From Giardia intestinalis (Eukaryota): DNA of 64,000 nt. The position numbers and the translations under genes were made by a program. Where the stretch lies: the NCBI GenBank assembly GCA_000002435.2, contig CM018789.1. One strand, 5' to 3'. A model generated the notes under the pieces. The model was not told where the DNA came from. It was given only the letters and a program-made list of their open reading frames with translations, and did not search any database. This document shows positions 43,510-64,000 of the stretch, piece after piece (the stretch's first letter is position 1; each line of letters opens with the position of its first letter).

Positions 43510-46500
43510 TTAGTTCTTTGTAAAAATAAATGACGGGGTCAAGGGACGAAGCGAAGAAGGCCTCTGGGCCTCCCTGATTACCAGAGAGGCAGATACACCG
43601 GGGAGAGAGGGAGAAGGAGTGTGTATAGACATCCTGTTTGTGTGGATCAATGACGTGGATGCACTTCGTCTATTTGAAAGTTTTATTCCAACGCTACCAG
43701 TGGCCAGCTCTTCTCTGATATTGCTTCTCCCAATGGATATATCTATATGTTGTGATAATACCGCCATAATCTTTGCGTCCTGTATGGCTGAGACGAACTC
43801 CTTTGTCAGCAGCCGACTTTCCCTTGCAGCCAGAAGCGATATTGATTTAATATCACGACGATCCAGTGCAAATGCCAATGCACAATCGCCATCTAAGTTT
43901 AGACGCCCGGCTTCATCACATAAAAGCGCTGCGCTTGTGGACTGAGAGTGCTTTGTTGCCCACATGAGAGCAGTATTTCCACTGCGATCAGACATTCCTT
44001 TCTGCGTCGAATAGTAGAGGCTTGCAAGGGGCAGGTTTCCCATTCCCGCGGCAACCATGAGGGGCGTCAGTCCGTTCTTATCGCAAATAGTCGTACTGAC
44101 GCCTGCTGTTTGCTGCACCAGTATTCTGCATATGTCCTCACGCTGTGTGCAAGTGGCGATGAGCAACGGGCTTGGAAAGTCAAATGCCCAGATCCCGCTG
44201 CTCCATTTTCCGACAAACGATATGGAGTGCTCAAGAGGAGCCAGCATAGCAACCATGTTAACAATTCCCTTTTCGATGGCAATGATCAGTGCTGTCCTGC
44301 CCGTGGGATCTGTGGCTCCGGCCTCGTGAAGAAGCTCCTCTGCCAATGCTTGGTCGTTATTCATCACAGCCTTGTGCAATTCTGTTACTCCACTTTCGGA
44401 CCTTATCGCCGGTTTTATCAGTGACGCGATTTCGGAAAGTCCCAGCTCTGTTGCCAGTTTCCAAGGCAGAGTCTCTCCAACAGTTATGCTAGCCTCTATC
44501 CGGAGCAACTTAATTACGTCTATATCTCCCAGCTTTATGGCGAGTGTTAGAGCGGAATACATTCCACGGTAGACAGCTTGGCAGAAACAGATGTTTTCCT
44601 TGACCAGCTCCAAGTCTTTGTTCACAACAGCAGCCATCAAGGGCGTGAAGCCTCTACGTGATATTCTTTCCAACTCTTCCTTGCAGCATAGTAAAGCTGC
44701 TGCAGCTCTATATTCGTCTTTATCCAGAGCATAGTCTGTTGCTACCAGGCCTGCTAAATCCTGCAATCCGCCCTCTGTGTCCATTAGCAAGTTAATCGCA
44801 TCTATGTTTCCTGCTGCTGCAGCCAGCATTAGGGCCGTTTGGCCTTGAGCATTTCTTCTGCGCGCAAGGTGCATGCACATTCGCATACCTTCCAGGTTGC
44901 CATTGATGGCCTCGACGTGCAGCTGTGTGTGTCCGTCTTCGTCTTCGAACGCTGGGTGAAGGACGTATTGCTTGAGTAGGATAGTGGCCTCTTCTAATTG
45001 CTCAGCTGCCTTTATAAATCTTGACGGGTTAGGGTGTCTATGAATGAGCTGTCTGATAAGCTCGGTGTTTTTGTCCGCACTTACTTTGGAGGGACGAAGG
45101 AGTGCTTTGAAAAGCGCTAAGTCACCGTCCCAGTCGCTAGCCATAGATGGCTCTAGAAGTGCTAAGCTCAGGAGTCCATTTGAATAACAGGGAAACTCAT
45201 GCCGCAAAGTTAGGGTAGCCCCCTCGAGAAAATCGTTGTCCAAAGCAATGTCGGTTGCTAGTTCTCCTGCAGAACTGACAAGGCAAGACTCGAGCGGAGC
45301 AAGGACTGCAACAATGTGCTTGTATTTATATTTCATAGCATACATCAGTGCGGTCCAGCCTGTATAATCCTGTTGACGGGCCTCTAAAAGGAATTTAATC
45401 GCTCCACTTATATCGCCTGAGATGGTGGCAATCATTAGATTAGTATATCCACAGGAAAGAAGAGCCTTTGTCTCAAATGGAGAGATAAGCCGGAACGTCT
45501 CAAGGTGGCCTTCTTTCAAAGCAAGCATCGAGGCGCAACATCCATACTTTTCAGTATTCTCAGTGCTTACAATCCCCCCTTCTAGTGTCAGCAAATCTTG
45601 GTCAATATCATTGAGTCCAAAGCTTGCCGCCAGCATCAGTGCAGTGTGACCATCATTGTTCTTCACTCCGTGGCAATGTAAAACCGCGAGAAGGTCGGCT
45701 CTTTTCCGAGTCATGCTACCATTTTGTGCACAGAATCGTATATATGTATGCAGTGGAGTCTCTCCCTTGGAGTCAACGTCGTACGTCGGTCGCAAGATCA
45801 TGCAAAGATCGGGGCTCTGCACCTTGTACGCCAAATACCATGCAGTCACCCCATCTTCTGTGATGAGATCCCGCTCCATCAGCAGAAGCTTGACACAGTC
45901 TTCGTCCCCAGTATTGACCGCATACATTAGGGCAGTCCACCCCTTGCTGTCGCGAGCGTTAGCTTGGTTGATATAAAGCCATACCAACCCGGGGCGTTTT
46001 TCGGCGGCAGCAATCATCAACTGCGTCATATCAGGGGGATACTTCTCTGCATTGGGAACAGCCAACTCATATTCAGCAATAGCCTCTGCAATATTGAGGG
46101 ACCCACTTAGGACAGCAAAATCAATTGCACTGAGACAACGGTTTCCTGTGGTGACTGCGAGTCCAGCCTCTAGTGATGCTAGTAGCACCGCACACTCCAG
46201 ACTTCCGTGCATCGATGCGTGCATCAAGGCCGTGAATCCATCATTATCCACCAGGCCTACTTGTCCTAGGTGGCAGAACACCATAAAAGGATCGCCGTTC
46301 AATGCCCCGATCATCAGGTTAGTCCTTCCACACTTGTCCGGCGGTGATGTAACTACGTGCTCAGGGAGCAGAAGGTGCTTTGCCAGCTCAAGATTTCCCA
46401 TGTGGAACGCTATCTCAGCAGCAGAAATGCCTGGAGCAAGGAGTCGGGACGGGATATCCTTGGAACTGCTTGGCGTTAACTTCTCTGCAGGAGCCCCAGA

Positions 46501-48195
46501 GAGAACGCTTTTTTCATACTCTAACAGCAGCAGAGCCATCTCCTCTCGTCCATGAAGGCAGCTCTGATGAAGCGCCGTGTGTCCATTATGGTCTCTTTCT
46601 CCGGCCTCGTAGTTTCTGAGGAGGCAAACAATTTCTTTGTGTTTGAGTGCAGCTGCAAGCATAAGGGCGGTATAATCGTCATTATTTTTCTTTCTGGCCA
46701 GGGAGAGGAACAACCTAGTGCCCACTGTGTCGCCTCCCATGACAGCGCGGTGCAGCTGAGTGTTTCCATCAGAATCCACGACGGGGCTCTGCTCTAGGAC
46801 GGTGAGAGCATCCATAAAGCCACTGTCTCGAGCCAGCTGCCACGGGGTGATACCAGAAGAAATGCAAATATCTTTTTCTGTCGAGAGAAGCTTAACACAG
46901 GTAAGGCTTTTGGAGGCTATTGCATACGCCAAGGCAGTGTTGCCAAGTGTGTCTACCCGTCCAGCTTGCCCTAAGTTTAGGTAGACACCAATAATGTCGT
47001 TATTACGCACGCTCTCAACTAGCGTGTCAGGAGCCTTGGGGATATCTCCGCTGTACGATAACAGTAGACGAATGATAGAGTTCGGATAGGTGCGTGATAT
47101 TCCAATAGATACTGGCAGTTCTCCGGCTGCATTTTTGACAGCTCCCTCTTGTGGAGCGAGTATCCTTATAATTTGTGCTAGTACGAACTCCTCAAAGGCA
47201 GCATATGAGCAAGAGGAGTCAGTCCCAGGCTTCGGGGTTTGAAACGTCGATCTCATCATTGCATAATGGAGCGCAGTATTTCCTGTAATCGAATGTACCT
47301 CTCCACACTCAAACGGGGCCAGAATTCTTACTACAGCAAGAGAAAGCCTCTTAGCCGCCATCATCAAGGCCGTGTTGCCGGTCTCATTGGTGCTTTTAGC
47401 AAACACTGCACCCAGTTCCTGTACCACAGCGAGATTATCCGTTTCAACAGCTCTGAAGAAGTCAGCCTGGGTAGATGATATGGAACATATGCTCTGCGTG
47501 TGTGGGTTCTCGTCCATGGAAGAAAACTCAGCCACAAGCCTATCTTGAAATGTGCTAAGGGACTGGTTATTAGTATACATTAGTAAGCACTGAATTAAGC
47601 TTGCTATACGCGAGCTGCATGACAGTCTACTACTGAGGTCAGAGGCTGCCAATTCAGCGCTCAGACATGGATATTCTCCAGCGTACGATCTATAAATCGC
47701 TGCACCAAGTCCACGGACAGCAGGCACGACGGAGGATAAATTGTGGTCCTCCTCTGGCACCAAGAGGAGTTCAATGTCTCCAAGAAATGGGATTTCCCCT
47801 GCCCTGTAGAAGACATTACTGCATTGAATCGTGGATAAATAAAGCCCAGCCGATGACAAACGCTCAATGGCTAGCAGAATAGAAAACGCCACGTTGGCTA
47901 CATCCAAGTCTGAGATCAAATTCTTTAGGACACCGCCCGAATGACATATGTTTTCGAGCGTGAGATGGTCACTTTCCAGTGCATAGAGTCTGATCACGTC
48001 TCCTTGAAACACGATCTTTCGTAACTTTAAAACATCACATTCCAGCGTGTTTCGTGCTGCGTTGAGTCGATCGAGGGCGCGTCTCAGGATGGGACTGACT
48101 TGAGCTTCTTGGTGAGCTGCTGCCGCGTTTTCTTTTGGGGGCGCCAACTCTTCTGATTTGCTCATTAAATCCTGATTTTCAGTTTGTGTTCGCAT
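43510..48195 (-). CDS. ankyrin-repeat protein (1561 aa) with N-terminal degenerate kinase-like domain (protein 21.1/NEK-like)
   Basis: More than 25 ankyrin repeats (GNTALMMAAKRLSLAVVRILAP, GHTALHQSCLHGREEMALLLLE, and others). The N-terminal roughly 250 aa lacks catalytic kinase motifs. The start ATG lies inside the AGTAAATG signal of the upstream gene. Confidence 0.8.
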   Translation of the reverse strand: MRTQTENQDLMSKSEELAPPKENAAAAHQEAQVSPILRRALDRLNAARNTLECDVLKLRKIVFQGDVIRLYALESDHLTLENICHSGGVLKNLISDLDVANVAFSILLAIERLSSAGLYLSTIQCSNVFYRAGEIPFLGDIELLLVPEEDHNLSSVVPAVRGLGAAIYRSYAGEYPCLSAELAASDLSSRLSCSSRIASLIQCLLMYTNNQSLSTFQDRLVAEFSSMDENPHTQSICSISSTQADFFRAVETDNLAVVQELGAVFAKSTNETGNTALMMAAKRLSLAVVRILAPFECGEVHSITGNTALHYAMMRSTFQTPKPGTDSSCSYAAFEEFVLAQIIRILAPQEGAVKNAAGELPVSIGISRTYPNSIIRLLLSYSGDIPKAPDTLVESVRNNDIIGVYLNLGQAGRVDTLGNTALAYAIASKSLTCVKLLSTEKDICISSGITPWQLARDSGFMDALTVLEQSPVVDSDGNTQLHRAVMGGDTVGTRLFLSLARKKNNDDYTALMLAAALKHKEIVCLLRNYEAGERDHNGHTALHQSCLHGREEMALLLLEYEKSVLSGAPAEKLTPSSSKDIPSRLLAPGISAAEIAFHMGNLELAKHLLLPEHVVTSPPDKCGRTNLMIGALNGDPFMVFCHLGQVGLVDNDGFTALMHASMHGSLECAVLLASLEAGLAVTTGNRCLSAIDFAVLSGSLNIAEAIAEYELAVPNAEKYPPDMTQLMIAAAEKRPGLVWLYINQANARDSKGWTALMYAVNTGDEDCVKLLLMERDLITEDGVTAWYLAYKVQSPDLCMILRPTYDVDSKGETPLHTYIRFCAQNGSMTRKRADLLAVLHCHGVKNNDGHTALMLAASFGLNDIDQDLLTLEGGIVSTENTEKYGCCASMLALKEGHLETFRLISPFETKALLSCGYTNLMIATISGDISGAIKFLLEARQQDYTGWTALMYAMKYKYKHIVAVLAPLESCLVSSAGELATDIALDNDFLEGATLTLRHEFPCYSNGLLSLALLEPSMASDWDGDLALFKALLRPSKVSADKNTELIRQLIHRHPNPSRFIKAAEQLEEATILLKQYVLHPAFEDEDGHTQLHVEAINGNLEGMRMCMHLARRRNAQGQTALMLAAAAGNIDAINLLMDTEGGLQDLAGLVATDYALDKDEYRAAAALLCCKEELERISRRGFTPLMAAVVNKDLELVKENICFCQAVYRGMYSALTLAIKLGDIDVIKLLRIEASITVGETLPWKLATELGLSEIASLIKPAIRSESGVTELHKAVMNNDQALAEELLHEAGATDPTGRTALIIAIEKGIVNMVAMLAPLEHSISFVGKWSSGIWAFDFPSPLLIATCTQREDICRILVQQTAGVSTTICDKNGLTPLMVAAGMGNLPLASLYYSTQKGMSDRSGNTALMWATKHSQSTSAALLCDEAGRLNLDGDCALAFALDRRDIKSISLLAARESRLLTKEFVSAIQDAKIMAVLSQHIDISIGRSNIREELATGSVGIKLSNRRSASTSLIHTNRMSIHTPSPSLPGVSASLVIREAQRPSSLRPLTPSFIFTKN

Positions 48196-52978: not shown

Positions 52979-53884
52979 ATGGAACCCACCGTTAAGAAAT
53001 GCACCTCTTGCACTTGCGAACCCGTCTCTGCGCCTGCGCATGAGCAACAGAAGCTTTTGGAAAACACATCTGCACCCTCAGCCTCTGCTACATTTAAGGC
53101 AGTTTCCAAGCGCCTTGTTAGAAACGTAGGCAGAGCCATCTCCACCTACAAACTTATTGAACAGGGCGATCGTGTTGCACTGGCCCTCTCGGGAGGAAAG
53201 GACAGCTGGACACTTCTCCACGTCCTCCTTGATATAGCAAAACGCTCCCCAGTTAAGTTCACTGTTATCCCTGTGACGGTGGAGACAGGATATCCAGGGT
53301 TTGAAGCCAATGTCGCAAAGCTCACGAAGTACATTGAGGAGAACCTCGGCATAAAGCACGTGGTCATAAAGGAGACCTTCCCGGAGATAATCGACGGGAA
53401 CTTACGCCAAGGAACAAGCAACTGCTCGTTCTGCGCCCGCTTACGAAGAGGAACCCTCTACACGCATTGCCAAAAACTGGGGATTAATAAGCTCGCCCTA
53501 GGTCACCATAGGGAGGACGTTAACGAGTCACTTTTGATGTCTCTTTTCTTCAACGGAAAACTCTGGACGCAAGGCCCGATAATTCATAACTCAGAGAAGA
53601 ACGTTACGCTAATTCGCCCCATGGTATTCTGCGCAGAAGAGGACACTATTGCATATGCGCGCCATAGTACGTTTCCAATAGTTACATGCAACTGTCCCCA
53701 CGAGGGAAACAAAGAACATCGGCGGTACAAGATCAAGCAGACGATTCTTACCATGCGCCAGTGGATTCCAGATATCCAGCGCAGCATCTTGACGGGGGCC
53801 ACAGAGCTATTCCAATTCATGCAATATACAGACAAGGGCAAGGAGCGAAATAACAGAGCAGAGGACGATGGTGAGCTAATGTAA
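52979..53884 (+). CDS. cytoplasmic tRNA 2-thiolation protein 1 (Ncs6/Ctu1/TtcA-family PP-loop ATPase)
   Basis: PP-loop SGGKDS, Cys motifs CSFCARLRRG and CNCPHEG, and conserved LALGHHREDV. The ATG context is GAAAAATAAATG. The stop is embedded in TGTAAAC. Confidence 0.85.
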   Translation: MEPTVKKCTSCTCEPVSAPAHEQQKLLENTSAPSASATFKAVSKRLVRNVGRAISTYKLIEQGDRVALALSGGKDSWTLLHVLLDIAKRSPVKFTVIPVTVETGYPGFEANVAKLTKYIEENLGIKHVVIKETFPEIIDGNLRQGTSNCSFCARLRRGTLYTHCQKLGINKLALGHHREDVNESLLMSLFFNGKLWTQGPIIHNSEKNVTLIRPMVFCAEEDTIAYARHSTFPIVTCNCPHEGNKEHRRYKIKQTILTMRQWIPDIQRSILTGATELFQFMQYTDKGKERNNRAEDDGELM

Positions 53885-56800
53885 ACTGCAAGCATGCGCT
53901 CTGTCGGTGAGTAAAGGAGTAACAGGGGCTATCTCCTTTGTATCAATCTGATAAAGGGTCAGTTTCTTAGTTATGGTTTCCTTAGTTGCAGTCAGAGGAC
54001 GCGATAGAAGCTTCTCGTAGTTTAGTTGTGCAGGAGTGAAGGGGTGCAGACGAGGTGCAGTGCACTGGGCGTATCCTCGGTAGACGCGGCCCACATCTCT
54101 GTCTATGATGGCTTCTTTGTAGAATCTGCGGCAGGCTTTCCGATTAGAGACCGTCTTATCCCCAGCAACCGCTCGTTGTCGAGGGCCCCTATCATGTTTA
54201 TCTGGTGGAGGATTTGGTGGAAGCTTTTCTAAGGTATTAGTGATACGTTTATCAGAATCGTGCATGAGACCTCGTACTAGAGCCCCATTGGCATCACCGT
54301 CGTGCTCAGCAAAAACGTTTGTTGGTGCCTCTTGCAAAGATACTGGGTCTAGATTCTGACACCCGTGTGGATCTTCAAATAATTGTTTGCAACCATCACT
54401 GACAGGAATATTCAGCGTGGCCTCGTCATCCTTTGCTTCCCTTGTGACTTCGTCGCCAGTCTGTAGCACCGTTACGGGCTCAACAAGATGATTGTGAACT
54501 GTCGGTCTATCAGTACTAGTAAGACATCCATGGTCATCTAGAATTACTTGGGAACTACCAGTATCTATCCTCGAAGCAGTTCTAGCAGAAACGGGGGGTC
54601 TGGCTGGTTCCTTGGAACGGGTACAGGATGGAGCGCAAGAAAGTGGACGGGATATGCCAAAGCTCGCGCAGCGCTGCCTGTTAAGCCCCTCCTTGAGAAG
54701 TTTGGTCAGGTGCGAATCGTAGGCTGTGGTATTTAATGCCGCACTTTTAGCAGCATGATTGCGTTGCGGAGGAGCCCGAAGTTTCGGGGTGTAGGCCTGG
54801 AGGTACGCGATGTAGTCCAGCATCATGTTAGAGTGCGGACAAGAAGGCAGTGCAGTCTCGCTCCTGCGAAGATTAGGTAACGGGGTTGTTAATAGTCTAT
54901 TTGGAGTGACATCCAGAGCTTGCTTCGATATGCCGATCATTGGATTATGCGTTGGTGTGCTTATCACAACCTCTGTAAGATTCTGCGCTAGTGACAAATG
55001 CGGCCCTTCATGTTGAGCTTCTTCAAAACGGTCAGTCGGGAGCGATTCTTCCAAAGGAGAAGAAGATGGGGTGTAGAAAAACGCTTTGACAGCCTTAAGG
55101 TTTCTGTCGGCTTCAATTGTGGCATCCTGTGGGCTGGTAATCTCATTAGTTAGCTCTCTGAAATCAGGGGGTTCAAATCCGTCAGGGGCGCTGGAATCTG
55201 TGTCGGGGTGAAGTCCTCGTACCTTATGTATTACAGTATCCCCATCCGAGTACTTAATTCGTTTGTACAGCTCCATGTTCAGGCCTCGCTTCACCCTATC
55301 GATTCCATATATTCGTCTGATCTCGGCATCCTTTCGGAGATCGTTAAACAACTTTGTAACGCAATTTTTCTGATCAGGAGTCACTAGACGCTGCGCATAT
55401 GGAGATAATGCAGAGTCATGAGAGGTGTTGTGAAAGATCTGCTTTATGTCTTTCACGTCCTCTTCTGTGAGCGCATTAGTGCGCGCAGAAACGGCGTTGC
55501 ACATTGTAGAAATTTGGTTCTCCTTGGTGGGGATCTTCATCGGCGCGTATACACTCCGCACGATTCGTGATGAAGCATGTGGCGTTTGGCACTCAATGCG
55601 AGTATCAACCGGTGAAGTACCACTCAGATCCTCAGGAAAAATTCGAATATCACTCGGGACGTATGGAGAAGGGATATCCTTCACACTTCGAATGATGTTC
55701 TCTCTCTCAATGGTCATTGGAGTGTTGTATAGTAGCCTTAGATGTGCAGGAGAATGCAGTGGCAGCATTCCAAAAGCAGGCGCAGTACGTGGCCTAAAAG
55801 AAAGTAGATCAGGGCGCAGAGGCTCAGTGCGAGACACATAAGCAGAGGCAGACCTCAGCTTGTAACAGCGTAGCTTAGGAAGATCCGAGCTTCGCCTTGA
55901 TACAGTGGACGAAGCGGCCTTATTACGTAACCGTTGCAACTCTGTCTTTGTACCAGATGCCGATGCTTTTATGAATGCTCGCAGCTGTGGCGGATAGCGG
56001 GATATACCCAAATTGATTGGAGGTGGCGGTTTTGAAGGCACAACGGCCCCACAAGCATCTGTTTGAGAAGCTACATGTTGGAACTCACTAGGCATAGGGA
56101 CACGGAGAACTGAAGGTGCTGGTAAATCTGTAGGCATCGGCTGCGCAGCATTGTGAAAGGGAATCGGTTCAATGGCCACTAGTGAATGAACAATAAGACC
56201 AGCAAGTTTAGTTAGGTCAGGCATCCAATAGTAATTTTGTGCTCCTCGCTCCTGAAGCCTGGACGCCTTTGAACCTACCTGCAGCTGTGTCTGGGAACAA
56301 AGGGCAGGAGGGCTAGATAGAGTAAACCGCTTTGGAATGCGGCCTCGGAATGAGGGGTTGGGCCGTATGTGAGTAAAGCTAGACTGTAGAAAAGCTCTAG
56401 GCTGGTGCATCTTTTCCTCCTGAGAAGGGCTGGAAAGGCCATGCTGCGAGGTAAGCAACTTAGATGGCGGAATACTGGGTTTTATGGCAAGAGGCGGAGA
56501 CACGCACACGTATGACGTCCTCGAGCTTTTCTGGTCAATGTGCATAGGTGGTGGGGTAGCAGTTGGCACTCGGGAAACTACAGGCGAGATGGGAGCATCG
56601 TAGGAGGGCCGTGCATCGATAGGTCGATCTGTGAAATGGTAAGATGTGTCTGACGATGTATCTGTTGGTAGATCCGTTGTCAATAGCGGGAGTGAGATCG
56701 ATGACAGATGAACAGATTCAGAGTTCTCGCGAGACTGTGAAGCCGTATCCTCAGAAGTATAGTACTGCAGTGGGTGGATAACAAAAGAATCATTTCCAGA

Positions 56801-58081
56801 CTCTGGAAGTAGCCTCCTTTCGAAGGAAAGGATATTTCCACAAATAGTCTCACTCTGCGTTGGATTAGATTGAGAAAACGCATCTTCAAGGTCCTTCACC
56901 TGGGGAGACAAGTGAGACCCGCACTTATCTGACGAAGTATATTGTGGCATATTGGCACAGGGGCTTCCCGCTTGCGAATTATTCTCCTCGCAACAACTGG
57001 GAGAGGCAGTGCCAGGAAGCATAGATGCATGTTCCACTTTAGTTGGCTGCTTAAAGGATTGAGACTTCTTGCCCTCAGCAGTCACGAAAGGTTCATGAGA
57101 AAACTCTGCTTCCGTGCCCTGGCCAGGGTCTGGCCAAGAATTAGCTGTGTCAGTATGCATTTCTTCTTGTGACTCGAGTACGTCATGCATATTCTGCGAG
57201 CCCAAGCTGCCAGCTATGACCAACGGCTGCTTAAGTTGTAACGCAAAAGCGCCTTCTTGTTCCACGCCAGTAGTTGCATGGAGCATGCTCCTCATAGATC
57301 TCTCTGTTCTTTTGACAAGGTTAACATTCTTCAGGGTGTAAAGAGCATTCTTGTGGGCCTCTCGATTACGAGCCTCCTTGTGATGAAAACGGGAACTCTT
57401 TGGTTGCGGAGTTATGGTTGAGACTTCTTGCTTCGAGCCATCTGTCGACTTTTCGCAAATCTCGGGAGGCTTATTGGCATGTGTCAAAATGGGTGGGGGA
57501 TGTCCCAAAGTCGCCTGACGAACCGGCTCAGCCACAGAAAGCATGCCCCCTCTCCGCTTTTCCCTCCACTGACTAACGGAGTGTAAAACATTGTACTTGG
57601 TTGTGCTGTAGCCCTCATTACAGTACATCACGCGAGGTAACGTGACTGTCCGCCGAGAGTGGTTAGAGATCAAAACGCGGGGCTTCCTTGTGTCCATGTT
57701 CTTGTCATCCGAATAGATGTGTTCATTGAGGACTATTTGGGAGGGCATGACATAGCGTTTCTGGCCACTGGTTCGGAGCCCAAGAAGATCTATGGAGTCA
57801 TCGCCCTTAACAGGCCGCAACCTTAGAAGCTGCTCTCTTTCTGGCTCAGTATGGACGACGATGCCTGTGTCTCTAGCGGAAAAGCTTCTATTGGGTCGCT
57901 CTGAAAGTGGCCTCTTGCGTTCTGCCCTTCTGATAATCATGGACGCCGTGTATGGGCATAGCAATGGCTCAGACGGCCTCCCTGAAAAGCTAGATGATTC
58001 ACAAAGGGCCGCTTTAGACAGAGAAGAGACAGGGCGGTCTGGATTTGTTTTTGTTCTGGGCAGACTTACTGTCCGATGCAC
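53876..58081 (-). CDS. hypothetical Pro/Ser-rich low-complexity protein (1401 aa)
   Basis: Uninterrupted 4.2 kb ORF. An ATG lies immediately upstream of the listed GTG start. It overlaps the 3' end of Ncs6 by 9 nt. Confidence 0.55.
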   Translation of the reverse strand: MHRTVSLPRTKTNPDRPVSSLSKAALCESSSFSGRPSEPLLCPYTASMIIRRAERKRPLSERPNRSFSARDTGIVVHTEPEREQLLRLRPVKGDDSIDLLGLRTSGQKRYVMPSQIVLNEHIYSDDKNMDTRKPRVLISNHSRRTVTLPRVMYCNEGYSTTKYNVLHSVSQWREKRRGGMLSVAEPVRQATLGHPPPILTHANKPPEICEKSTDGSKQEVSTITPQPKSSRFHHKEARNREAHKNALYTLKNVNLVKRTERSMRSMLHATTGVEQEGAFALQLKQPLVIAGSLGSQNMHDVLESQEEMHTDTANSWPDPGQGTEAEFSHEPFVTAEGKKSQSFKQPTKVEHASMLPGTASPSCCEENNSQAGSPCANMPQYTSSDKCGSHLSPQVKDLEDAFSQSNPTQSETICGNILSFERRLLPESGNDSFVIHPLQYYTSEDTASQSRENSESVHLSSISLPLLTTDLPTDTSSDTSYHFTDRPIDARPSYDAPISPVVSRVPTATPPPMHIDQKSSRTSYVCVSPPLAIKPSIPPSKLLTSQHGLSSPSQEEKMHQPRAFLQSSFTHIRPNPSFRGRIPKRFTLSSPPALCSQTQLQVGSKASRLQERGAQNYYWMPDLTKLAGLIVHSLVAIEPIPFHNAAQPMPTDLPAPSVLRVPMPSEFQHVASQTDACGAVVPSKPPPPINLGISRYPPQLRAFIKASASGTKTELQRLRNKAASSTVSRRSSDLPKLRCYKLRSASAYVSRTEPLRPDLLSFRPRTAPAFGMLPLHSPAHLRLLYNTPMTIERENIIRSVKDIPSPYVPSDIRIFPEDLSGTSPVDTRIECQTPHASSRIVRSVYAPMKIPTKENQISTMCNAVSARTNALTEEDVKDIKQIFHNTSHDSALSPYAQRLVTPDQKNCVTKLFNDLRKDAEIRRIYGIDRVKRGLNMELYKRIKYSDGDTVIHKVRGLHPDTDSSAPDGFEPPDFRELTNEITSPQDATIEADRNLKAVKAFFYTPSSSPLEESLPTDRFEEAQHEGPHLSLAQNLTEVVISTPTHNPMIGISKQALDVTPNRLLTTPLPNLRRSETALPSCPHSNMMLDYIAYLQAYTPKLRAPPQRNHAAKSAALNTTAYDSHLTKLLKEGLNRQRCASFGISRPLSCAPSCTRSKEPARPPVSARTASRIDTGSSQVILDDHGCLTSTDRPTVHNHLVEPVTVLQTGDEVTREAKDDEATLNIPVSDGCKQLFEDPHGCQNLDPVSLQEAPTNVFAEHDGDANGALVRGLMHDSDKRITNTLEKLPPNPPPDKHDRGPRQRAVAGDKTVSNRKACRRFYKEAIIDRDVGRVYRGYAQCTAPRLHPFTPAQLNYEKLLSRPLTATKETITKKLTLYQIDTKEIAPVTPLLTDRAHACSLH

Positions 58082-58624: not shown

Positions 58625-60163
58625 CTAGTGGAACAAGGCTGTATATGCGCTCAAGGAAGGCGATTTCTTGTCATAGAGGCATGCTATGGCTCGTTTCCAC
58701 TGAGAAGTCTCCTCGATAAAGGCTGCATTCTGACCCTCATCTAACCCACTATTTTCACTAGCCTCTTCGCTTTCTTCGCTTTCCTGATTAGACTTTTTGA
58801 CTGCTAGTAGCTCATCTATTTTACTGATGAGTCTGTCTGCGCGTTCCTTGTACTCTGCAAGATATTGTCCTGTGGGGAGGTTCTTAGATCCGTGATCAGA
58901 GTATCTCATGTGGGCCAGAATTAGGATTGCTTTTCTGATGCTTGCTACCAGCTCCCGTGAAGGTCTAACTGCTGATTGCGGTAGATCCACGATTGCGTCC
59001 ACGATAAGCATTATCTTCTTATTAACTCCTGCCCTACTCAGCTCTGTTGTAAAGGAGTCGCTGAGTCTATCATTGCTCTTAAAAAGGGAACATATGTATG
59101 TGAAGACGGTGGCGTACGGTTGGAGAACAAACGGCTCCTCTTCCGGAATTGAAAGTAAGATAGACAAGGCATCACAGAAGAGGTTCATCTTAATTATGTT
59201 TTTGTAATTCTCATACAGGACAGCAAGGTAGGCGATGATGTCTCCTGCTCTTCTCATCCGCTCGGTGTCACTCATGATTCTGGTCAGCGAGATAACGAAC
59301 GGCTTAAGAAACAAGTCTGATGCCAGCAGGGCGATGCAGCATCTTTGAGGATCGGATGGAGACAGGGAAGAGAAAAGTATGCTGGGCTGCAGGATGGCTG
59401 TGTACGAAAAGAGGCTCCGCAGCTGCTCGATTGTTTGAAGTGTGAAAGGTGTCTGAATCGCGAATGTCAAAATCACATAGATGTCATGGTAGCTTGTGAA
59501 CTCTCTCTGCTTGCGGACGTTTAGGATTTTTGTGAGCAAGTCGACGGGGTTCTTGGATATTTCGGCGCAGGTAGGAGCCTTTGTCTGATTGGTCAGTTCG
59601 AAGAAATTCCCGTTATAGAAATCGCTCAGCTGTGCAGTGTCCTTTGGAAGCGCTACCCTGGGCAGAGAAAAGAGGTACTGCTCCAAAGCCGTTTTGATCT
59701 CAGGGGATATGTTGCTGAGCCAGGAAATAGGGAAGCGGGGGGCATAGCCTGCCATTACCGACTGCTTCGTCAGTTTGCGCTTCTTCTTTGGCGCAGATTC
59801 CTCGTTGGTAGGGTCTGCGGTGTTCTGCTCAAGGAAGGACTGTTTGCCGCGTGGCTCTAAAAATAAGGTGCCGTTCACGTCGTAGCCACTCACCAATATG
59901 GTTTTCTGCCAGAGGGGCGCGCCATCATGAACGTAGCCGGCGGGAAGCTCAGCGGGTGGAAAGTAAAGGGCCTGCATGCTGTAAAATACTAATGCCCAGT
60001 ATAATTTTATGCAATCTGAAAAGAAGGCAGGGACAGATGAGTTGGCACGCAGGAGAGGCTTTGGAGCGGCGCGAGTCGCACAAGCTACGCGAGCCCAGGA
60101 CCGCCGAAGAGGGAGAAGACATCGAAGAAACCATTGTGGAGGCGACGCGGGTAGCGCAGGCAC
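58625..60163 (-). CDS. hypothetical protein
   Basis: ORF whose likely start is the internal ATG at 59977 (MQALYF…, about 450 aa). The 62 codons upstream read like non-coding translation. It carries a KKKRKL basic patch and an acidic Ser/Glu C-terminal region. Confidence 0.5.
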   Translation of the reverse strand: MPALPASPPQWFLRCLLPLRRSWARVACATRAAPKPLLRANSSVPAFFSDCIKLYWALVFYSMQALYFPPAELPAGYVHDGAPLWQKTILVSGYDVNGTLFLEPRGKQSFLEQNTADPTNEESAPKKKRKLTKQSVMAGYAPRFPISWLSNISPEIKTALEQYLFSLPRVALPKDTAQLSDFYNGNFFELTNQTKAPTCAEISKNPVDLLTKILNVRKQREFTSYHDIYVILTFAIQTPFTLQTIEQLRSLFSYTAILQPSILFSSLSPSDPQRCCIALLASDLFLKPFVISLTRIMSDTERMRRAGDIIAYLAVLYENYKNIIKMNLFCDALSILLSIPEEEPFVLQPYATVFTYICSLFKSNDRLSDSFTTELSRAGVNKKIMLIVDAIVDLPQSAVRPSRELVASIRKAILILAHMRYSDHGSKNLPTGQYLAEYKERADRLISKIDELLAVKKSNQESEESEEASENSGLDEGQNAAFIEETSQWKRAIACLYDKKSPSLSAYTALFH

Positions 60164-62187
60164 TCGAGGCCTTGTCTCAGCGGACGGACTATATCGTGTC
60201 CCTCGTGAGCCCGGACAAGGCTTCGGAAGAATTCAGACTAAAGATATTCACATTCATCTCTAAAGTAATAGAGGCTGTACTGCCGAATACATTGATTGTG
60301 CCTTACGGCAGCTTCATCTCCAAGATCTATCTTCCAAGCTCTGACTTGGATATCTGCTGCTTCAACCATGGTCTTGACGAGATACCCCTTCTGCAGAAGA
60401 TTCTGGAAGCGCTTACGGTTTTCAGTGATCCGAGCCTTCGACCGACCGGAGTCCGGGTCCCTCCCGCAGTGTCCCAACTCATCAATTCACGTATACCGAC
60501 GGAGGAGCGGTTGGAACTAGAGAATATTGAGTTCATCATGGCAAAGGTGTCCTTGATTAAGTGCACCGTTTGTGGATTGGGAGTGGACATCTCGGCGGCC
60601 CAGCCCGGCTCACTGGTTACGTCTCTACTAATAGAGAAGCTTTCTCAGTCCATCGGGCGCAATAACCTTCTTAAGCGCTCTTTTCTCCTCATCCAGTCCT
60701 GGTGTTTATATGAGGCGAGAATCGTCGGTGGACACTCACAGATGCTTAGCTCTTACGCACTCCGCGTTATGGTGATCAACATCTTACTAAATTGCAGAGA
60801 TATCTATACGCCTTTCCAGGCGCTATATGTCTTTCTTGCATATTATTCTAGTTTTGACTACGATAGGGACATTGTCCATCCTTCTGGGCCTCTTCCAAAG
60901 CCTCCAGCCCATGAGTCTCTTACGGCGGCTCAGCTCAGTGGAAGTATGGAGGTGTTAGAGAGCCACATCTCGCCGTCGTATCTAAATCATCTGCGGTTTC
61001 TCAGAGACCTGTGCAGTGGGACAATATACAAGCCCGAGGTTCAGAATGTTTACGAAATAGTTAAGACGTACTTTGAGAAGCTCAGAGAAGCTCAGGAAAA
61101 GCCACTAGAGAGACTTGGAGACCCGCATGAGACGGATGAAACCCGCTCTACGCCGATTGATGATAGAAACACCGTGTCTGCTCAAGCAGATGTGCCGTCT
61201 TCTGTAGATGGTACAAAGGATCACGCAGTGGGTAGTGATTTTGTCAGTGTGGACTTGGATGATCGGAGACATCAAGGCACAGGTGAGAGGGCTTTTCCTA
61301 AGCGGCAGTGTAAGCATACAACCGGGCTAGTATTCTCTAGTGTGCCGACCAGCACCGAGAGCGCCACATCCATGGCCAGTTCAAATGCTGATGCGCTGCC
61401 TCACCAAGAAAAGGTATTCACAGATGATGCAGATGGTGTTGAGGCCGCATCACTGTCCCAGCGTCTGGGCCTTAAGCACCATGCAGTGGGCGGTGATCAG
61501 AATGCAGTAAGTCCCTCTGTCTCTCCTTCCCTTTCTGGTCGCCAGCCTGCACTAGAGAGCAAGCCATTTTCTAATGCACCTAGACCAAACACCAAAACAG
61601 AGACGGTCTCCTACGATCCGGTCTCACTAAAAGGGCTGACCAACATGTCTCGCTCTATCCTTTCTTACTTTAAGGACCAGGGAGCATTTAATGAACCGAA
61701 TCTCAACGATCATGACATCCTGCTCCTTTTTAAGCGGTATTTTTCTATGGGCACACTCCCTAACGTGCTATCGGACTCTCGAGCGTTTCTCCCTTCCTAC
61801 ATCTCAATAGTGGATCCCCTTCAGGTGATTAATAACTTGGGGCGCTCTGTCTCTGAGCCTAACTTCATGAGAATCACTCGGTCCTTTCAGACTGCACACA
61901 TAGTTCTTTCCGATATAGTTCAAATGTGTACCACAGGAAACATGACCATAACGGAAGCATTAGCGGAATACGACTGCTTTTTCATCTCTACTCTTTCTAT
62001 CTTTGGAGACATGAGTATAGAGAAGCTGACTGGTGGCGTATCTGACCTGTCTATCAACGTAGACGTGCTGGAGGCAGGGTGCCACCTTGTCGGGGCAACA
62101 GTATTGGGGTTCCCGATCGATGCACGGTCCTCACTGGTCGGATGCCTCCAGATTGGCTCTTGCCAGCCCACACCCGGTACTAAGTAG
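59851..62187 (+). CDS. non-canonical poly(A)/poly(U) polymerase (Cid1/Trf4/GLD-2 family nucleotidyltransferase)
   Basis: Nucleotidyltransferase motif GSFISKIYLPSSDLDICCF and a PAP-associated domain (RSFLLIQSWCLYEARIVGG…ALRVMVINIL). The likely ATG is at 59992 (GTAAAATACTAATG). AGTAAAT lies 10 nt after the stop. Confidence 0.8.
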   Translation: MALKIRCRSRRSHSPIWFSARGARHHERSRREAQRVESKGPACCKILMPSIILCNLKRRQGQMSWHAGEALERRESHKLREPRTAEEGEDIEETIVEATRVAQALEALSQRTDYIVSLVSPDKASEEFRLKIFTFISKVIEAVLPNTLIVPYGSFISKIYLPSSDLDICCFNHGLDEIPLLQKILEALTVFSDPSLRPTGVRVPPAVSQLINSRIPTEERLELENIEFIMAKVSLIKCTVCGLGVDISAAQPGSLVTSLLIEKLSQSIGRNNLLKRSFLLIQSWCLYEARIVGGHSQMLSSYALRVMVINILLNCRDIYTPFQALYVFLAYYSSFDYDRDIVHPSGPLPKPPAHESLTAAQLSGSMEVLESHISPSYLNHLRFLRDLCSGTIYKPEVQNVYEIVKTYFEKLREAQEKPLERLGDPHETDETRSTPIDDRNTVSAQADVPSSVDGTKDHAVGSDFVSVDLDDRRHQGTGERAFPKRQCKHTTGLVFSSVPTSTESATSMASSNADALPHQEKVFTDDADGVEAASLSQRLGLKHHAVGGDQNAVSPSVSPSLSGRQPALESKPFSNAPRPNTKTETVSYDPVSLKGLTNMSRSILSYFKDQGAFNEPNLNDHDILLLFKRYFSMGTLPNVLSDSRAFLPSYISIVDPLQVINNLGRSVSEPNFMRITRSFQTAHIVLSDIVQMCTTGNMTITEALAEYDCFFISTLSIFGDMSIEKLTGGVSDLSINVDVLEAGCHLVGATVLGFPIDARSSLVGCLQIGSCQPTPGTK
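59978..59991. promoter_or_regulatory. 14-bp AT-rich spacer between likely divergent start codons
   Basis: GCTGTAAAATACTA lies between the minus ATG ending at 59977 and the plus ATG at 59992. Confidence 0.4.
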
Positions 62188-62196
62188 TAAACTAGG

Positions 62197-62203
62197 TAGT
62201 AAA
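62197..62203 (+). promoter_or_regulatory. AGTAAAT polyadenylation signal of the poly(A) polymerase gene
   Basis: TAG stop at 62185-62187 followed by TAAACTAGGTAGTAAATC. This matches the Giardia AGTRAAY consensus. Confidence 0.6.
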
Positions 62204-62215
62204 TCAAAAAAGGAC

Positions 62216-64000
62216 ATGGCAAAGGGAACCAGGATTCGATCCATTCCCATCTCCAATCAGCTGTCTGCGTTCATAGTCTTCTTTCTGAAGCTTCAGCTAA
62301 TGAATTGGATGTCGACCCTGTTTGTCGTAATCTTTCCCTTTATCTTTTACATTATGCTGTATGCTCTAAAAGAACTTCTCTATTGGCTCACAGAGGGGGC
62401 CCCCTTGCGCATAGGGTTGATAGAAATAGCAATGACCCTTTTTGCCACCCCAGTGTCCCAGCCGCTGAAGACAAATGCGAGTCTTCCGTACCTCATCGAC
62501 CAACAGAAGTACCACTTAACTAACGGACTTAGTATCGGCCACTCATTTAGCGCAACGTCCACGCCAGTCACCGGGCTCACGTTTGGCTCTATAGGAAACT
62601 GCCACGGCACAACCACTGTCCTCAACGTTCTTCCCATTATCCAACTCATTCCTATTCCAGGCATTAAGATCTCTGCAGATTCCTTGGGGCTCAAAACATG
62701 TAAGGATGGAACGCAGACAAACTACACGGGGAGTATTCACAATCTATCCATTAACAGCCAGCCCATCATCGATTCTGCCATTTTCACAGTTATGACAGAG
62801 ACCTTCTATCTCCAGCCAGAGGAGCAGTTTTCTCTAAATCCTGAGTTCTATACCGTCAGAAACAATCAGCTCAATTTCTCAATAATGGGTCCACTAGAGA
62901 TCCACAATCTCGACAGATGCAACTTCAGCATATATACACGCGATTGCCCGCTATTAGAGACCAACCAGGCTATTGTGGGAGGTTCTACAAATGTTACCGA
63001 GGACACGTATCTCAAGTCAACCACTGACATGGTGTATAGAGCATGGTACCAGCTCCGCTATGCCTCTGGGACTCCAGAGCAAGGAGCTCCCGGCCTCCCC
63101 GAGGGTCTTCCGGTGGGGAAGCCCATCCCACAGTTTAAGGTCATCGACTATGTTCTCATCCCAGACGTCAGGTGGATCACAGACGTTCTCATGGAGCAAG
63201 GGAGCTATCTGGTCTTGCTCTTCATAGGGCACATCGTCATCCCATTAATCACTGTTCTTCTTGTTACGCAGGCATGCACAGGTTTCACGAGTTTAATCTA
63301 TTCATCTGGCCTCCATCCTGTCGTGTATTATTTAACGTTCTTTATCTATTACTACTTAGTGTCTCTTGCAATGTCAGTTATAAATGTCTTCGCTAGCATG
63401 GCATTCTCGATGGATAGTGTTAACAAGTTGGGGGGCCTTCTCGTCATAATAACATTTACCTATCCAATCTTTTCCATCCCACTAGCATTTGCATTTGCAA
63501 TGGCCTTTAAATCCGTGTTCTCTGCTGCAATCATATCCTGGTTCAGTGTAATTTTCGTTCCCCAGATGATTTTGCTTTTATCTAAGGTATTGCCGTTCAG
63601 AATCAATATATTGGCCTGGTTCCTGCCATTTTCCTCCCTATCTTACATAACATCAAGCATCACCATTGAGTCCGGGGCGATAAACGGCATCCTTGTCTTT
63701 TGTGCAATCCAGTGCGCGATCTATGGACCGGTAATGCTATTCTTGGAGATCTACCTCACTGCACGTGGTATAGCGAAAAGAAAGGGGCTTCTGAAGTCTC
63801 AGCAGCTTGAGCAAGCCGAGCTGACGATAGCAGAAGATGACCAGGAGAACGTTGCCGTGAGTGTCTCCAACCTGAGCAAGACATTCAAGGCTAGGTCAGG
63901 GTATGTTCATGCTGTGAAGAACCTTTCCTTCCAGGTGCGGACGGGGGAGATTTTCTCCCTACTGGGACACAATGGCTGTGGGAAGTCGACTACTGTGAAC
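62216..64000 (+). CDS. ABCA-type ABC transporter, N-terminal half (TM1, extracellular domain, TM bundle, NBD1); 3'-partial; one in-frame TGA as read
   Basis: This gene is absent from the supplied ORF track. My reading gives an ATG at 62216 (context AAATCAAAAAAGGACATG), then TM1. An in-frame TGA sits at 62843-62845. The same frame then continues without a stop to the window end, through hydrophobic helices and LSFQVRTGEIFSLLGHNGCGKSTTVN (Walker A of NBD1). Confidence 0.75.
   Translation, partial: MAKGTRIRSIPISNQLSAFIVFFLKLQLMNWMSTLFVVIFPFIFYIMLYALKELLYWLTEGAPLRIGLIEIAMTLFATPVSQPLKTNASLPYLIDQQKYHLTNGLSIGHSFSATSTPVTGLTFGSIGNCHGTTTVLNVLPIIQLIPIPGIKISADSLGLKTCKDGTQTNYTGSIHNLSINSQPIIDSAIFTVMTETFYLQPEEQFSLNPEFYTVRNNQLNFSIMGPLEIHNLDRCNFSIYTRDCPLLETNQAIVGGSTNVTEDTYLKSTTDMVYRAWYQLRYASGTPEQGAPGLPEGLPVGKPIPQFKVIDYVLIPDVRWITDVLMEQGSYLVLLFIGHIVIPLITVLLVTQACTGFTSLIYSSGLHPVVYYLTFFIYYYLVSLAMSVINVFASMAFSMDSVNKLGGLLVIITFTYPIFSIPLAFAFAMAFKSVFSAAIISWFSVIFVPQMILLLSKVLPFRINILAWFLPFSSLSYITSSITIESGAINGILVFCAIQCAIYGPVMLFLEIYLTARGIAKRKGLLKSQQLEQAELTIAEDDQENVAVSVSNLSKTFKARSGYVHAVKNLSFQVRTGEIFSLLGHNGCGKSTTVN

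What the first reader, a model, noticed from the sequence alone, without database searches (positions are those of the whole stretch)
62216..64000. ABCA transporter gene missing from the ORF track, with an in-frame TGA in its extracellular domain
One frame (positions congruent to 2 mod 3) is open from 62063 to 62842 and again from 62846 to the window end. It encodes an ATG with a Giardia-type context at 62216, a first TM helix, and an extracellular stretch of about 260 aa. A TM bundle and the Walker A of NBD1 (LLGHNGCGKSTTVN) follow. The only interruption I read is a TGA at 62843-62845 (…CAG CCA GAA GGA GCA GTT TTC TCT AAA TCC TGA GTT CTA TAC…).

The track lists small out-of-frame ORFs here but not this one. 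An ATG-initiated ORF of at least 75 codons demonstrably exists; I verified it letter by letter against the listed frame-1 ORF at 62305-62523. So the track is not exhaustive here.

I see four possibilities:
- a recent pseudogene or allelic nonsense variant (Giardia is polyploid)
- a base-call error
- programmed stop-codon readthrough
- a two-gene arrangement, where a roughly 209-aa single-TM protein is followed by a transporter starting at the ATG at 62885 (context TTTCTAATAATGG)

The last model would leave the ABCA protein without its TM1 and extracellular domain, which I find unlikely.
Basis: seen in the sequence. Interest (0 to 1): 0.6.

Follow-up and report, generated by a model that had tools for sequence, protein, structure and literature searches.

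The report
Intact Giardia ABC transporter; stop misread
The supposed in-frame stop codon is a reading error (one extra base was read), and what is really there is the intact, already annotated start of an ordinary Giardia ABCA-like half-size ABC transporter gene that simply runs off the end of the window.

Summary
The ORF is real; the anomaly is not. The frame 2 mod 3 is open without any stop from 62063 to 64000. Codon 62843-62845 is GAG (Glu210). A TGA does exist at 62842-62844, but it lies in another frame (ccTGAg). The true sequence is CCA GAG GAG CAG, so one extra A was read.

The ORF is missing from the track because the ORF lister omits ORFs that run off the window end.

The 595 encoded residues are 100% identical to residues 1-595 of XP_001707842.2, "ABC transporter, ATP-binding protein", 846 aa, from Giardia intestinalis WB, with the same ATG at 62216. 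The DNA is identical in three independent assemblies. Codon 210 is a sense codon in five Giardia lineages, and dN/dS is 0.03-0.17 on both sides of it.

The protein is a half-size transporter: TM1, an extracellular domain of about 275 aa, five more TM helices, one NBD and a C-terminal tail. Its NBD and its modelled TMD+NBD fold match ABCA1/3/4/7 best. No pseudogene, readthrough, sequencing error or two-gene model is needed. This is ordinary and already known.

The parts
62216..64000 (+). Codons 1-595 of the 846-codon CDS of a Giardia intestinalis ABC half-transporter (XP_001707842.2 / KAE8301431.1). The gene is cut by the window end; its remaining 251 codons and stop lie beyond 64000.
   Evidence: No stop in this frame. 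100% aa identity to P0004 residues 1-595. DNA identical to L001:3001-4785, L002 and L003. The full gene is L001:3001-5541.
62216..62218 (+). Start codon ATG, 28 nt after the stop of the upstream gene.
   Evidence: Same start as the current RefSeq model. The N-terminus MA.GT.IRSIP is conserved in assemblages A, B and E, lineage X and G. muris. The older 878-aa model started at the in-frame ATG 62120, inside the upstream gene.
62312..62368 (+). TM helix 1 (aa 33-51, STLFVVIFPFIFYIMLYAL).
   Evidence: Kyte-Doolittle mean 2.24. Helical with pLDDT 81-87 in the AF2 model.
62369..63208 (+). Hydrophilic, presumably extracellular or lumenal domain between TM1 and TM2 (aa 52-331, about 275 aa). It has six N-x-S/T sites. 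Cys129, Cys162 and Cys244 are invariant.
   Evidence: dN/dS is 0.04-0.15. No detectable relatives outside Giardia. The structural model here is low-confidence.
62843..62845 (+). Codon 210 = GAG (Glu), the position reported as an in-frame TGA. The real TGA is at 62842-62844, out of frame.
   Evidence: The orthologous codons are GAA (P15), GAA (assemblage B), GGG (lineage X) and TCC (G. muris).
62885..62887 (+). Internal in-frame Met224 (invariant). It is not a separate gene start.
63209..63745 (+). Membrane domain TM2-TM6 (aa 332-510), including the post-TM2 motif LVTQACTGFTSLIYSSGLHPVVYY.
   Evidence: Hydropathy. 35% identity to metagenomic relative P0024 and 29% to P0025, which carries Pfam ABC2_membrane_3 above threshold. 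The AF2 model with fold search aligns TMD+NBD to ABCA structures.
63848..64000 (+). Start of the single nucleotide-binding domain (aa 545-595), with Walker A GHNGCGKS at 63965-63988.
   Evidence: Pfam ABC_tran at aa 567-594 in the window fragment and 567-700 in the full protein. Coordinates.
60037..62187 (+). Upstream neighbour gene (716 aa), a non-canonical poly(A) polymerase/TUTase-like protein (MTPAP-like_central, PAP-OAS1). It ends with TAG at 62185-62187.

Best explanation
Window 62216-64000 holds the first 595 codons of an intact, expressed-type, already annotated Giardia intestinalis (assemblage A, WB-like) gene. It encodes an 846-aa half-size ABC transporter of ABCA-like architecture: a short cytosolic N-terminus, TM1, an exoplasmic domain of about 275 aa, TM2-TM6, one NBD, and a C-terminal tail of about 65-90 aa.

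There is no in-frame stop. The ORF is missing from the track only because ORFs that run off the window end are not listed.

Inferred mechanism: two copies dimerise so that two NBDs sandwich two ATP molecules, as in all ABC half-transporters. ATP binding and hydrolysis then drive an ABCA/ABCG-type (type V) membrane domain. By analogy with ABCA proteins, it most likely moves lipid or another hydrophobic substrate to or across the exoplasmic leaflet, with the lineage-specific exoplasmic domain acting as receiver or gate.

What is shown and what is inferred:
- The intact gene, its identity and its conservation are shown.
- Catalytic competence is inferred from intact motifs.
- Dimerisation, substrate and direction of transport are inferred by analogy only.
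For: No stop:
- Translation of 62063-64000 contains no '*'.
- Codon 62843-62845 is GAG, and the TGA at 62842 is in frame 1 mod 3.

Known gene:
- 100% identity over 595 aa, with the same start, to XP_001707842.2 / KAE8301431.1, 'ABC transporter, ATP-binding protein [Giardia intestinalis]', 846 aa.

Not a sequencing artefact:
- The 1785 nt are identical in assemblies of SRR3177747, SRR10919154 and SRR10662869.
- The exact 846-aa protein was indexed in 30 blocks of the collection, and 23 contigs carrying it were read.

Functional constraint:
- The full-length ORF is intact in assemblages A, E and B, an unnamed lineage and G. muris.
- Whole-gene dN/dS is 0.03-0.06.
- dN/dS in the extracellular domain is 0.05-0.17 upstream of codon 210 and 0.03-0.12 downstream.
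- The short cluster members are C-terminal fragments, not 209-aa truncations.

ABC machinery:
- Walker A (GHNGCGKS), the Q-loop Q619, the signature (CSGG), Walker B (VVLCDE) and H730 are all present and invariant, including in distant relatives.

ABCA affinity:
- The 13 best PDB sequence matches are all ABCA1/3/4/7 (E 1e-47 to 3e-44). The next family is at 1e-26.
- In the Foldseek search with the AF2 model, the top 17 hits are all ABCA1/3/4/7, with 484-693 aligned columns. Other ABC proteins align over only about 230-350 columns.
- TMD-NBD order with a TM1-TM2 gap of more than 100 aa is the ABCA hallmark described in PMC4649718.
Against: Nothing argues against the intact-gene reading. For the ABCA assignment and the mechanism there are several weaknesses:
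- The WB protein's membrane domain has no Pfam hit.
- The G. muris ortholog hits ABC2_membrane_3 below the gathering score, 27.2 against 31.6 bits.
- A profile of the N-terminal 540 aa finds nothing in the PDB at E<=10.
- hhalign against plant half-size ABCA membrane domains gives only 5% probability.
- The AF2 model is mediocre (mean pLDDT 61; extracellular domain and TM5-6 below 50). Its alignment also included three plant ABCA proteins, so the fold match is partly circular.
- No experimental data on expression, localisation or substrate were found. The accession is in no searchable paper.
Confidence: 0.95

Rival explanations
1. Recent pseudogene or allelic nonsense variant: a TGA at codon 210 truncates the protein in this isolate or allele.
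For: None in the sequence.
Against: Codon 210 is GAG. The DNA is identical in three independent assemblies. The ORF is intact in five lineages, with dN/dS 0.03-0.17 on both sides of the site. No N-terminal truncated cluster member exists.
Confidence: 0.01
2. Base-call or assembly error created a spurious stop.
For: None. The window sequence has no stop to explain.
Against.
Confidence: 0.01
3. Programmed stop-codon readthrough of a TGA within the extracellular domain.
For: None.
Against: There is no in-frame stop. The orthologous codons are ordinary sense codons: GAA, GAA, GGG and TCC.
Confidence: 0.005
4. Two genes: a single-TM protein of about 209 aa, followed by a transporter starting at ATG 62885.
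For: ATG 62885 exists and is in frame.
Against: The reading frame is continuous, with no stop between the two ATGs. Orthologs in all lineages, and two distant metagenomic relatives, encode TM1, the loop, the TMD and the NBD as one polypeptide. The region upstream of Met224 is under purifying selection in the same frame.
Confidence: 0.01
5. The gene is intact but is not a true ABCA subfamily member. It would be a diplomonad-specific ABC-2/DrrA-type half-transporter lineage whose NBD merely resembles ABCA NBDs, and whose membrane and exoplasmic domains arose independently.
For: The best NCBIfam NBD matches are the bacterial DrrA, NodI and RbbA families, with the ABCA4 'rim_protein' model lower. 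The WB protein has no significant membrane-domain similarity to ABCA by sequence. The extracellular domain has no relatives outside Giardia among 1.84 billion representatives.
Against: PDB matches to ABCA exceed every other family by about 20 orders of magnitude. Relative P0025 carries ABC2_membrane_3, the Pfam family of ABCA membrane domains, above threshold. The model's TMD+NBD superposes on ABCA structures over 484-693 columns. Published surveys place several Giardia ABC genes in subfamily A (PMC7985675).
Confidence: 0.15

Closest known systems
XP_001707842.2 / KAE8301431.1, 'ABC transporter, ATP-binding protein', Giardia intestinalis ATCC 50803 (WB)
   Same: Identical over all 595 residues encoded in the window, with the same start codon. 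The flanking genes are also the same: a PAP/TUTase-like gene upstream and a Sec23/24-family gene downstream.
   Different: Nothing differs. The window simply ends at codon 595 of 846.
Half-size ABCA transporters of plants (e.g. 'ABC transporter A family member 2', Rosa chinensis, 961 aa; the ATH group)
   Same: Single TMD-NBD polypeptide with TM1, a long exoplasmic loop and five more TM helices. ABCA-type NBD. A post-TM2 motif in the same register: LVTQACTGF..SSGLHP..YY against LVTEKELKL..IMGLYE..YW.
   Different: Only about 18-21% overall identity. Membrane-domain homology is not statistically supported (hhalign 5%). The exoplasmic domain is unrelated in sequence, and longer in Giardia (about 275 against about 170 aa).
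Human full-length ABCA1, ABCA3, ABCA4 and ABCA7 (cryo-EM structures 7tby, 7w01, 7lkp, 8ee6 and others)
   Same: Best NBD sequence matches, to both NBD1 and NBD2, at E about 1e-47. Best structural matches across TMD+NBD. An exoplasmic domain sits between the first two TM helices.
   Different: The human proteins are 1700-2300 aa with two halves and exoplasmic domains of about 600 aa. The Giardia protein is one half (846 aa), lacks about 12 residues before the Q-loop, and has CSGG instead of LSGG as its signature.
Metagenomic relatives P0024 (741 aa) and P0025 (684 aa), probably other diplomonads or metamonads
   Same: Same domain order and the same conserved N-terminus, TMD, NBD and C-terminal motif (GLEDVF). 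35% and 29% identity over the TMD.
   Different: The exoplasmic domain is about 100-130 aa shorter. Their organisms are unknown.

Membership tests
ABC transporter superfamily (ABC_tran NBD, PF00005) | NBD with Walker A, Q-loop, LSGGQ-type signature, Walker B with catalytic Glu, and H-loop | tested here: met
   PF00005 at 75.6 bits (cut-off 25) in the full protein and 28.9 bits in the window fragment. Motifs present: GHNGCGKS at 584, Q619, CSGG at 671, VVLCDE at 693, H730. Only Walker A lies inside the window.
ABCA subfamily | NBD sequence closest to ABCA NBDs | tested here: met
   The top 13 distinct PDB sequences are all ABCA1/3/4/7 (E 1.4e-47 to 3.1e-44). The next family is at 1.8e-26.
ABCA subfamily | Forward TMD-NBD order, with a long (>100 aa) exoplasmic segment between TM1 and TM2 | tested here: met
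   TM1 at aa 33-51 and TM2 at 332-350, a gap of about 275 aa, with the NBD after TM6. The criterion is taken from PMC4649718.
ABCA subfamily | Membrane domain homologous to ABCA / ABC2_membrane_3 (type V fold) | tested here: inconclusive
   - WB protein: no Pfam TMD hit.
- G. muris ortholog: 27.2 bits, below the 31.6 gathering score.
- Relative P0025: 46.9 bits, above it.
- Profile against the PDB: 0 hits.
- hhalign against plant ABCA TMDs: 5% probability.
- AF2 model with Foldseek: top 17 hits are ABCA over 484-693 columns, but mean pLDDT is 61 and the MSA contained plant ABCAs.
ABCA subfamily | Exoplasmic domain homologous to the ABCA ECD | tested here: inconclusive
   No sequence relatives of aa 56-308 outside Giardia. 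The model has pLDDT below 50 there, so the fold cannot be compared.
ABCA subfamily | Regulatory (R) domain following the NBD | tested here: inconclusive
   A conserved tail after the NBD (aa about 765-846) has predicted beta-alpha-beta-beta-alpha elements. The ABCA4 NBD1 alignment continues to query residue 814. No dedicated test was made.
Full-length (mammalian-type) ABCA | Two TMD-ECD-NBD halves in one polypeptide (hence an 'NBD1' and an 'NBD2') | tested here: not met
   The full protein is 846 aa, with one ABC_tran domain and one Walker A motif.
Interrupted gene (pseudogene or programmed readthrough) | An in-frame stop codon inside the coding region | tested here: not met
   No stops in frame from 62063 to 64000. 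The full gene L001:3001-5541 translates to 846 aa with a single terminal stop.

The most novel reading that the evidence does not exclude
The exoplasmic domain of about 275 aa (aa 52-331) has no detectable relative outside Giardia among 1.84 billion protein representatives, yet it is under purifying selection and has three invariant cysteines. It could be a lineage-specific fold that adapts a half-size ABCA-type lipid transporter to the lipid-scavenging lifestyle of this parasite, for example by handing lipids to or from host bile or micelles. This concerns the protein, not the reported stop codon, which does not exist.
Probability: 0.25. Interest if true: 0.3.

Novelty: already known. Interest (0 to 1): 0.05.

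Why it matters
It matters mainly as a negative result. A flagged candidate for stop-codon readthrough or a polyploid nonsense allele in Giardia is removed, with the cause identified: a one-base transcription error, plus an ORF lister that omits end-truncated ORFs.

The gene itself is an ordinary, annotated member of Giardia's ABC repertoire. Its only mildly interesting aspects are its half-size ABCA-like architecture and an exoplasmic domain found only in Giardia. No function has been tested for either.

Tried and rejected
- AF2 with 13 Giardia-only sequences gave mean pLDDT 36 and was unusable. A second run with two metagenomic relatives and three plant ABCAs reached pLDDT 61.
- A profile HMM of the N-terminal 540 aa against PDB sequences gave no hit at E<=10.
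- hhalign of the Giardia TMD profile against plant half-size ABCA TMDs gave probability 5% and E 0.008. The register was sensible but the result is not significant.
- The word-indexed homolog search with a 6-sequence profile returned mostly unrelated NBD-only matches and did not deepen the TMD alignment.
- A literature search for the accession XP_001707842 found 0 papers. I could not map the gene to a GL50803_ identifier, so the published proteomic and mitosome lists of Giardia ABCA genes could not be tied to this locus.
- The literature on stop-codon readthrough in Giardia was listed but not pursued, because there is no stop.
- I checked whether short members of the protein cluster (196, 185 and 138 aa) could be truncated alleles. 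They are C-terminal fragments.

Full report
**1. Observation**

The translation has no stop over all 646 codons. A base-by-base check gave the following:
- ATG is at 62216-62218.
- The upstream in-frame stop is TAG at 62060.
- The in-frame codons around the disputed site read CAG CCA GAG GAG CAG TTT TCT CTA AAT CCT GAG TTC TAT ACC.
- Positions 62843-62845 are therefore GAG (Glu210).
- A TGA exists at 62842-62844, but in frame 1 mod 3 (cc-TGA-g).

Removing one A from 'GAAGGAG' restores the true sequence.

The open frame itself is far beyond chance. About 30 stops are expected, 0 are found (P about 4e-14), and the other five frames have 23-56 stops.

The ORF is absent from the mechanical list because that tool states that ORFs running off either end of the source are not listed. 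This ORF runs off the window end at 64000.

**2. What the gene is**

The 595 encoded residues are 100% identical to residues 1-595 of P0004. P0004 is XP_001707842.2 / KAE8301431.1 / UniRef100_A0A644EYL3, 'ABC transporter, ATP-binding protein', Giardia intestinalis ATCC 50803 (WB), 846 aa, with the same initiator Met.

The older RefSeq version (878 aa) began 32 codons upstream, at the in-frame ATG 62120. That position lies inside the 3' end of the preceding gene.

The full gene was recovered as L001:3001-5541. It is flanked upstream by a 716-aa MTPAP-like/PAP-OAS1 protein (window 60037-62187) and downstream by a Sec23/24-family gene.

Window 62216-64000 is identical at the DNA level in assemblies of three independent sequencing runs. 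L001 differs from the window at 10 positions, all upstream of the ABC gene.

**3. Is it functional?**

I fetched the orthologous loci from:
- assemblage B (L004);
- assemblage E, isolate P15 (L007), whose annotated start is an internal Met; the equivalent upstream ATG is present;
- an unnamed Giardia lineage at 84-86% aa identity (L005);
- G. muris (L006).

All have a single uninterrupted ORF of 846-865 codons. Codon 210 is GAG, GAA, GAA, GGG and TCC respectively.

Nei-Gojobori dN/dS is 0.03-0.06 for the whole gene. Within the exoplasmic domain it is 0.05-0.17 upstream of codon 210 and 0.03-0.12 downstream. This shows purifying selection in one continuous frame.

The short members of the protein cluster are C-terminal fragments (aa 651-846 or 709-846). 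They are not N-terminal truncations.

Pseudogene, base-call error, readthrough and two-gene models are therefore all unnecessary and are contradicted by the data.

**4. Anatomy**

Hydropathy and motif scans of the full protein give:
- TM1 at aa 33-51;
- a hydrophilic segment at aa 52-~331, with six N-x-S/T sites and Cys129, Cys162 and Cys244 invariant;
- TM2 at 332-350, TM3 at about 375-399, TM4 at 408-426, TM5 at 437-455 and TM6 at 492-510;
- Walker A GHNGCGKS at 584, signature CSGG at 671 and Walker B VVLCDE at 693;
- Q619 and H730, which are invariant even in the distant relatives.

There is one NBD (Pfam ABC_tran, aa 567-700, 75.6 bits), so this is a half-transporter and the label 'NBD1' is wrong. 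ATG 62885 is the invariant internal Met224.

**5. Family assignment**

By sequence, the 13 best distinct PDB sequences are all ABCA1/3/4/7 (E 1.4e-47 to 3.1e-44), matching both of their NBDs. The next family scores 1.8e-26.

NCBIfam, a prokaryote-centred library, places the NBD nearest the DrrA, NodI and RbbA (ABC-2 type) families and the ABCA4 'rim_protein' model. All are far below their cut-offs.

The N-terminal 540 aa are very lineage-restricted. An exhaustive phmmer search of 1.84 billion representatives found only three matches:
- the Giardia cluster itself;
- P0024, a metagenomic protein (741 aa, 35% identity over the TMD, E 1e-36);
- P0025, a metagenomic protein (684 aa, E 1.2e-7).

Both relatives have the same architecture but a shorter loop. 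P0025 hits Pfam ABC2_membrane_3, the family that holds ABCA membrane domains, above threshold (46.9 against 31.6 bits). The G. muris ortholog hits it below threshold (27.2 bits). The WB protein does not hit it at all.

Two further tests of the membrane domain were weak:
- A TMD profile finds nothing in the PDB.
- hhalign against plant half-size ABCA TMDs is not significant at 5% probability, although the register (post-TM2 motif, TM2-TM5) is sensible.

The second AF2 model has mean pLDDT 61: the NBD is at 80-92, TM1-TM4 at 62-87, and the exoplasmic domain and TM5-6 below 50. Its top 17 Foldseek hits are all ABCA1/3/4/7, aligned over 484-693 columns (TMq 0.40-0.48). Other ABC proteins align only over the NBD. 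The alignment given to AF2 contained three plant ABCAs, so this support is partly circular.

The architecture criterion from PMC4649718 is met. That paper describes TMD-NBD half structures in the ABCA family and a TM1-TM2 distance above 100 aa as typical of ABCA. PMC7985675 lists several Giardia genes as ABCA, but I could not map this locus to a GL50803 identifier.

Overall the protein is an ABCA-like half-transporter. The NBD and the architecture are shown. Membrane-domain homology is probable but not proven. Homology of the exoplasmic domain is untestable here.

**6. Mechanism (inferred)**

As a half-transporter it must pair, most simply as a homodimer, to form the two composite ATP sites. 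All catalytic motifs are intact. By analogy with ABCA proteins it would move lipid or another hydrophobic substrate at the exoplasmic leaflet. No experimental evidence was found.

**7. Verdict**

The gene is real, intact and already annotated. The in-frame TGA is a transcription error. The 'missing ORF' follows from the ORF-listing rule. Interest is low.

Noticed in passing
window 62120-62218; proteins P0004-P0014: Public gene models for this one gene disagree on the start. Lengths are 846 (current RefSeq, ATG 62216), 878 (old RefSeq, ATG 62120, overlapping the upstream gene), 867 and 889 (other callers or isolates), and 818 and 819 for P15 and GS, which start at internal Mets (aligned to window residues 29 and 32). 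N-terminal conservation out to G. muris supports 62216.
   Followed up: partly
window 62185-62218: Only 28 nt, A-rich (GTAAACTAGGTAGTAAATCAAAAAAGGAC), separate the stop of the upstream PAP/TUTase-like gene from the ABC start codon. Promoter and 5' UTR must fit in or overlap the upstream gene's 3' end, which is typical Giardia compactness.
   Followed up: no
L005:1501-4053 (Logan ERR3333378) and cluster P0002, P0018-P0023: A Giardia lineage whose ortholog is 84-86% identical to assemblages A and B, with the same synteny. No member of its protein cluster carries a name from any source. It is possibly a less-sequenced assemblage.
   Followed up: no
L006 (G. muris CM016927.1) against L001, L004, L005 and L007: The gene order of PAP-like gene, ABC gene and Sec23/24 gene is conserved among G. 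intestinalis lineages. In G. muris the ortholog has different neighbours.
   Followed up: no
window 62369-63208 (aa 52-331): The exoplasmic domain has no detectable sequence relative outside Giardia among 1.84 billion representatives. The two distant metagenomic relatives (P0024, P0025) have a loop about 100-130 aa shorter. Three cysteines are invariant.
   Followed up: partly
P0004 aa 612-613 and 671 (beyond the window end): Relative to ABCA1 and ABCA4, the NBD lacks about 12 residues just before the Q-loop. It also uses CSGG rather than LSGG as the signature. Both features are conserved across Giardia.
   Followed up: no
window 15109-20820 (+) and 35983-40560 (-): Two very long ORFs (1903 and 1525 aa) carry an N-terminal AMP-binding (acyl-CoA-synthetase-like) domain and have long unannotated remainders.
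   Followed up: no
window 24468-32705 (+) and 53876-58081 (-): ORFs of 2745 and 1401 aa have no Pfam hit at E<=1e-5. A 1561-aa ankyrin-repeat ORF lies at 43510-48195 (-). No tRNA genes are found in the window.
   Followed up: no
window 58625-60163 (-) and 59851-62187 (+): The mechanical ORF list shows these two ORFs overlapping by about 300 nt. This is an artefact of extending the + ORF to a GTG. The called gene starts at ATG 60037.
   Followed up: partly
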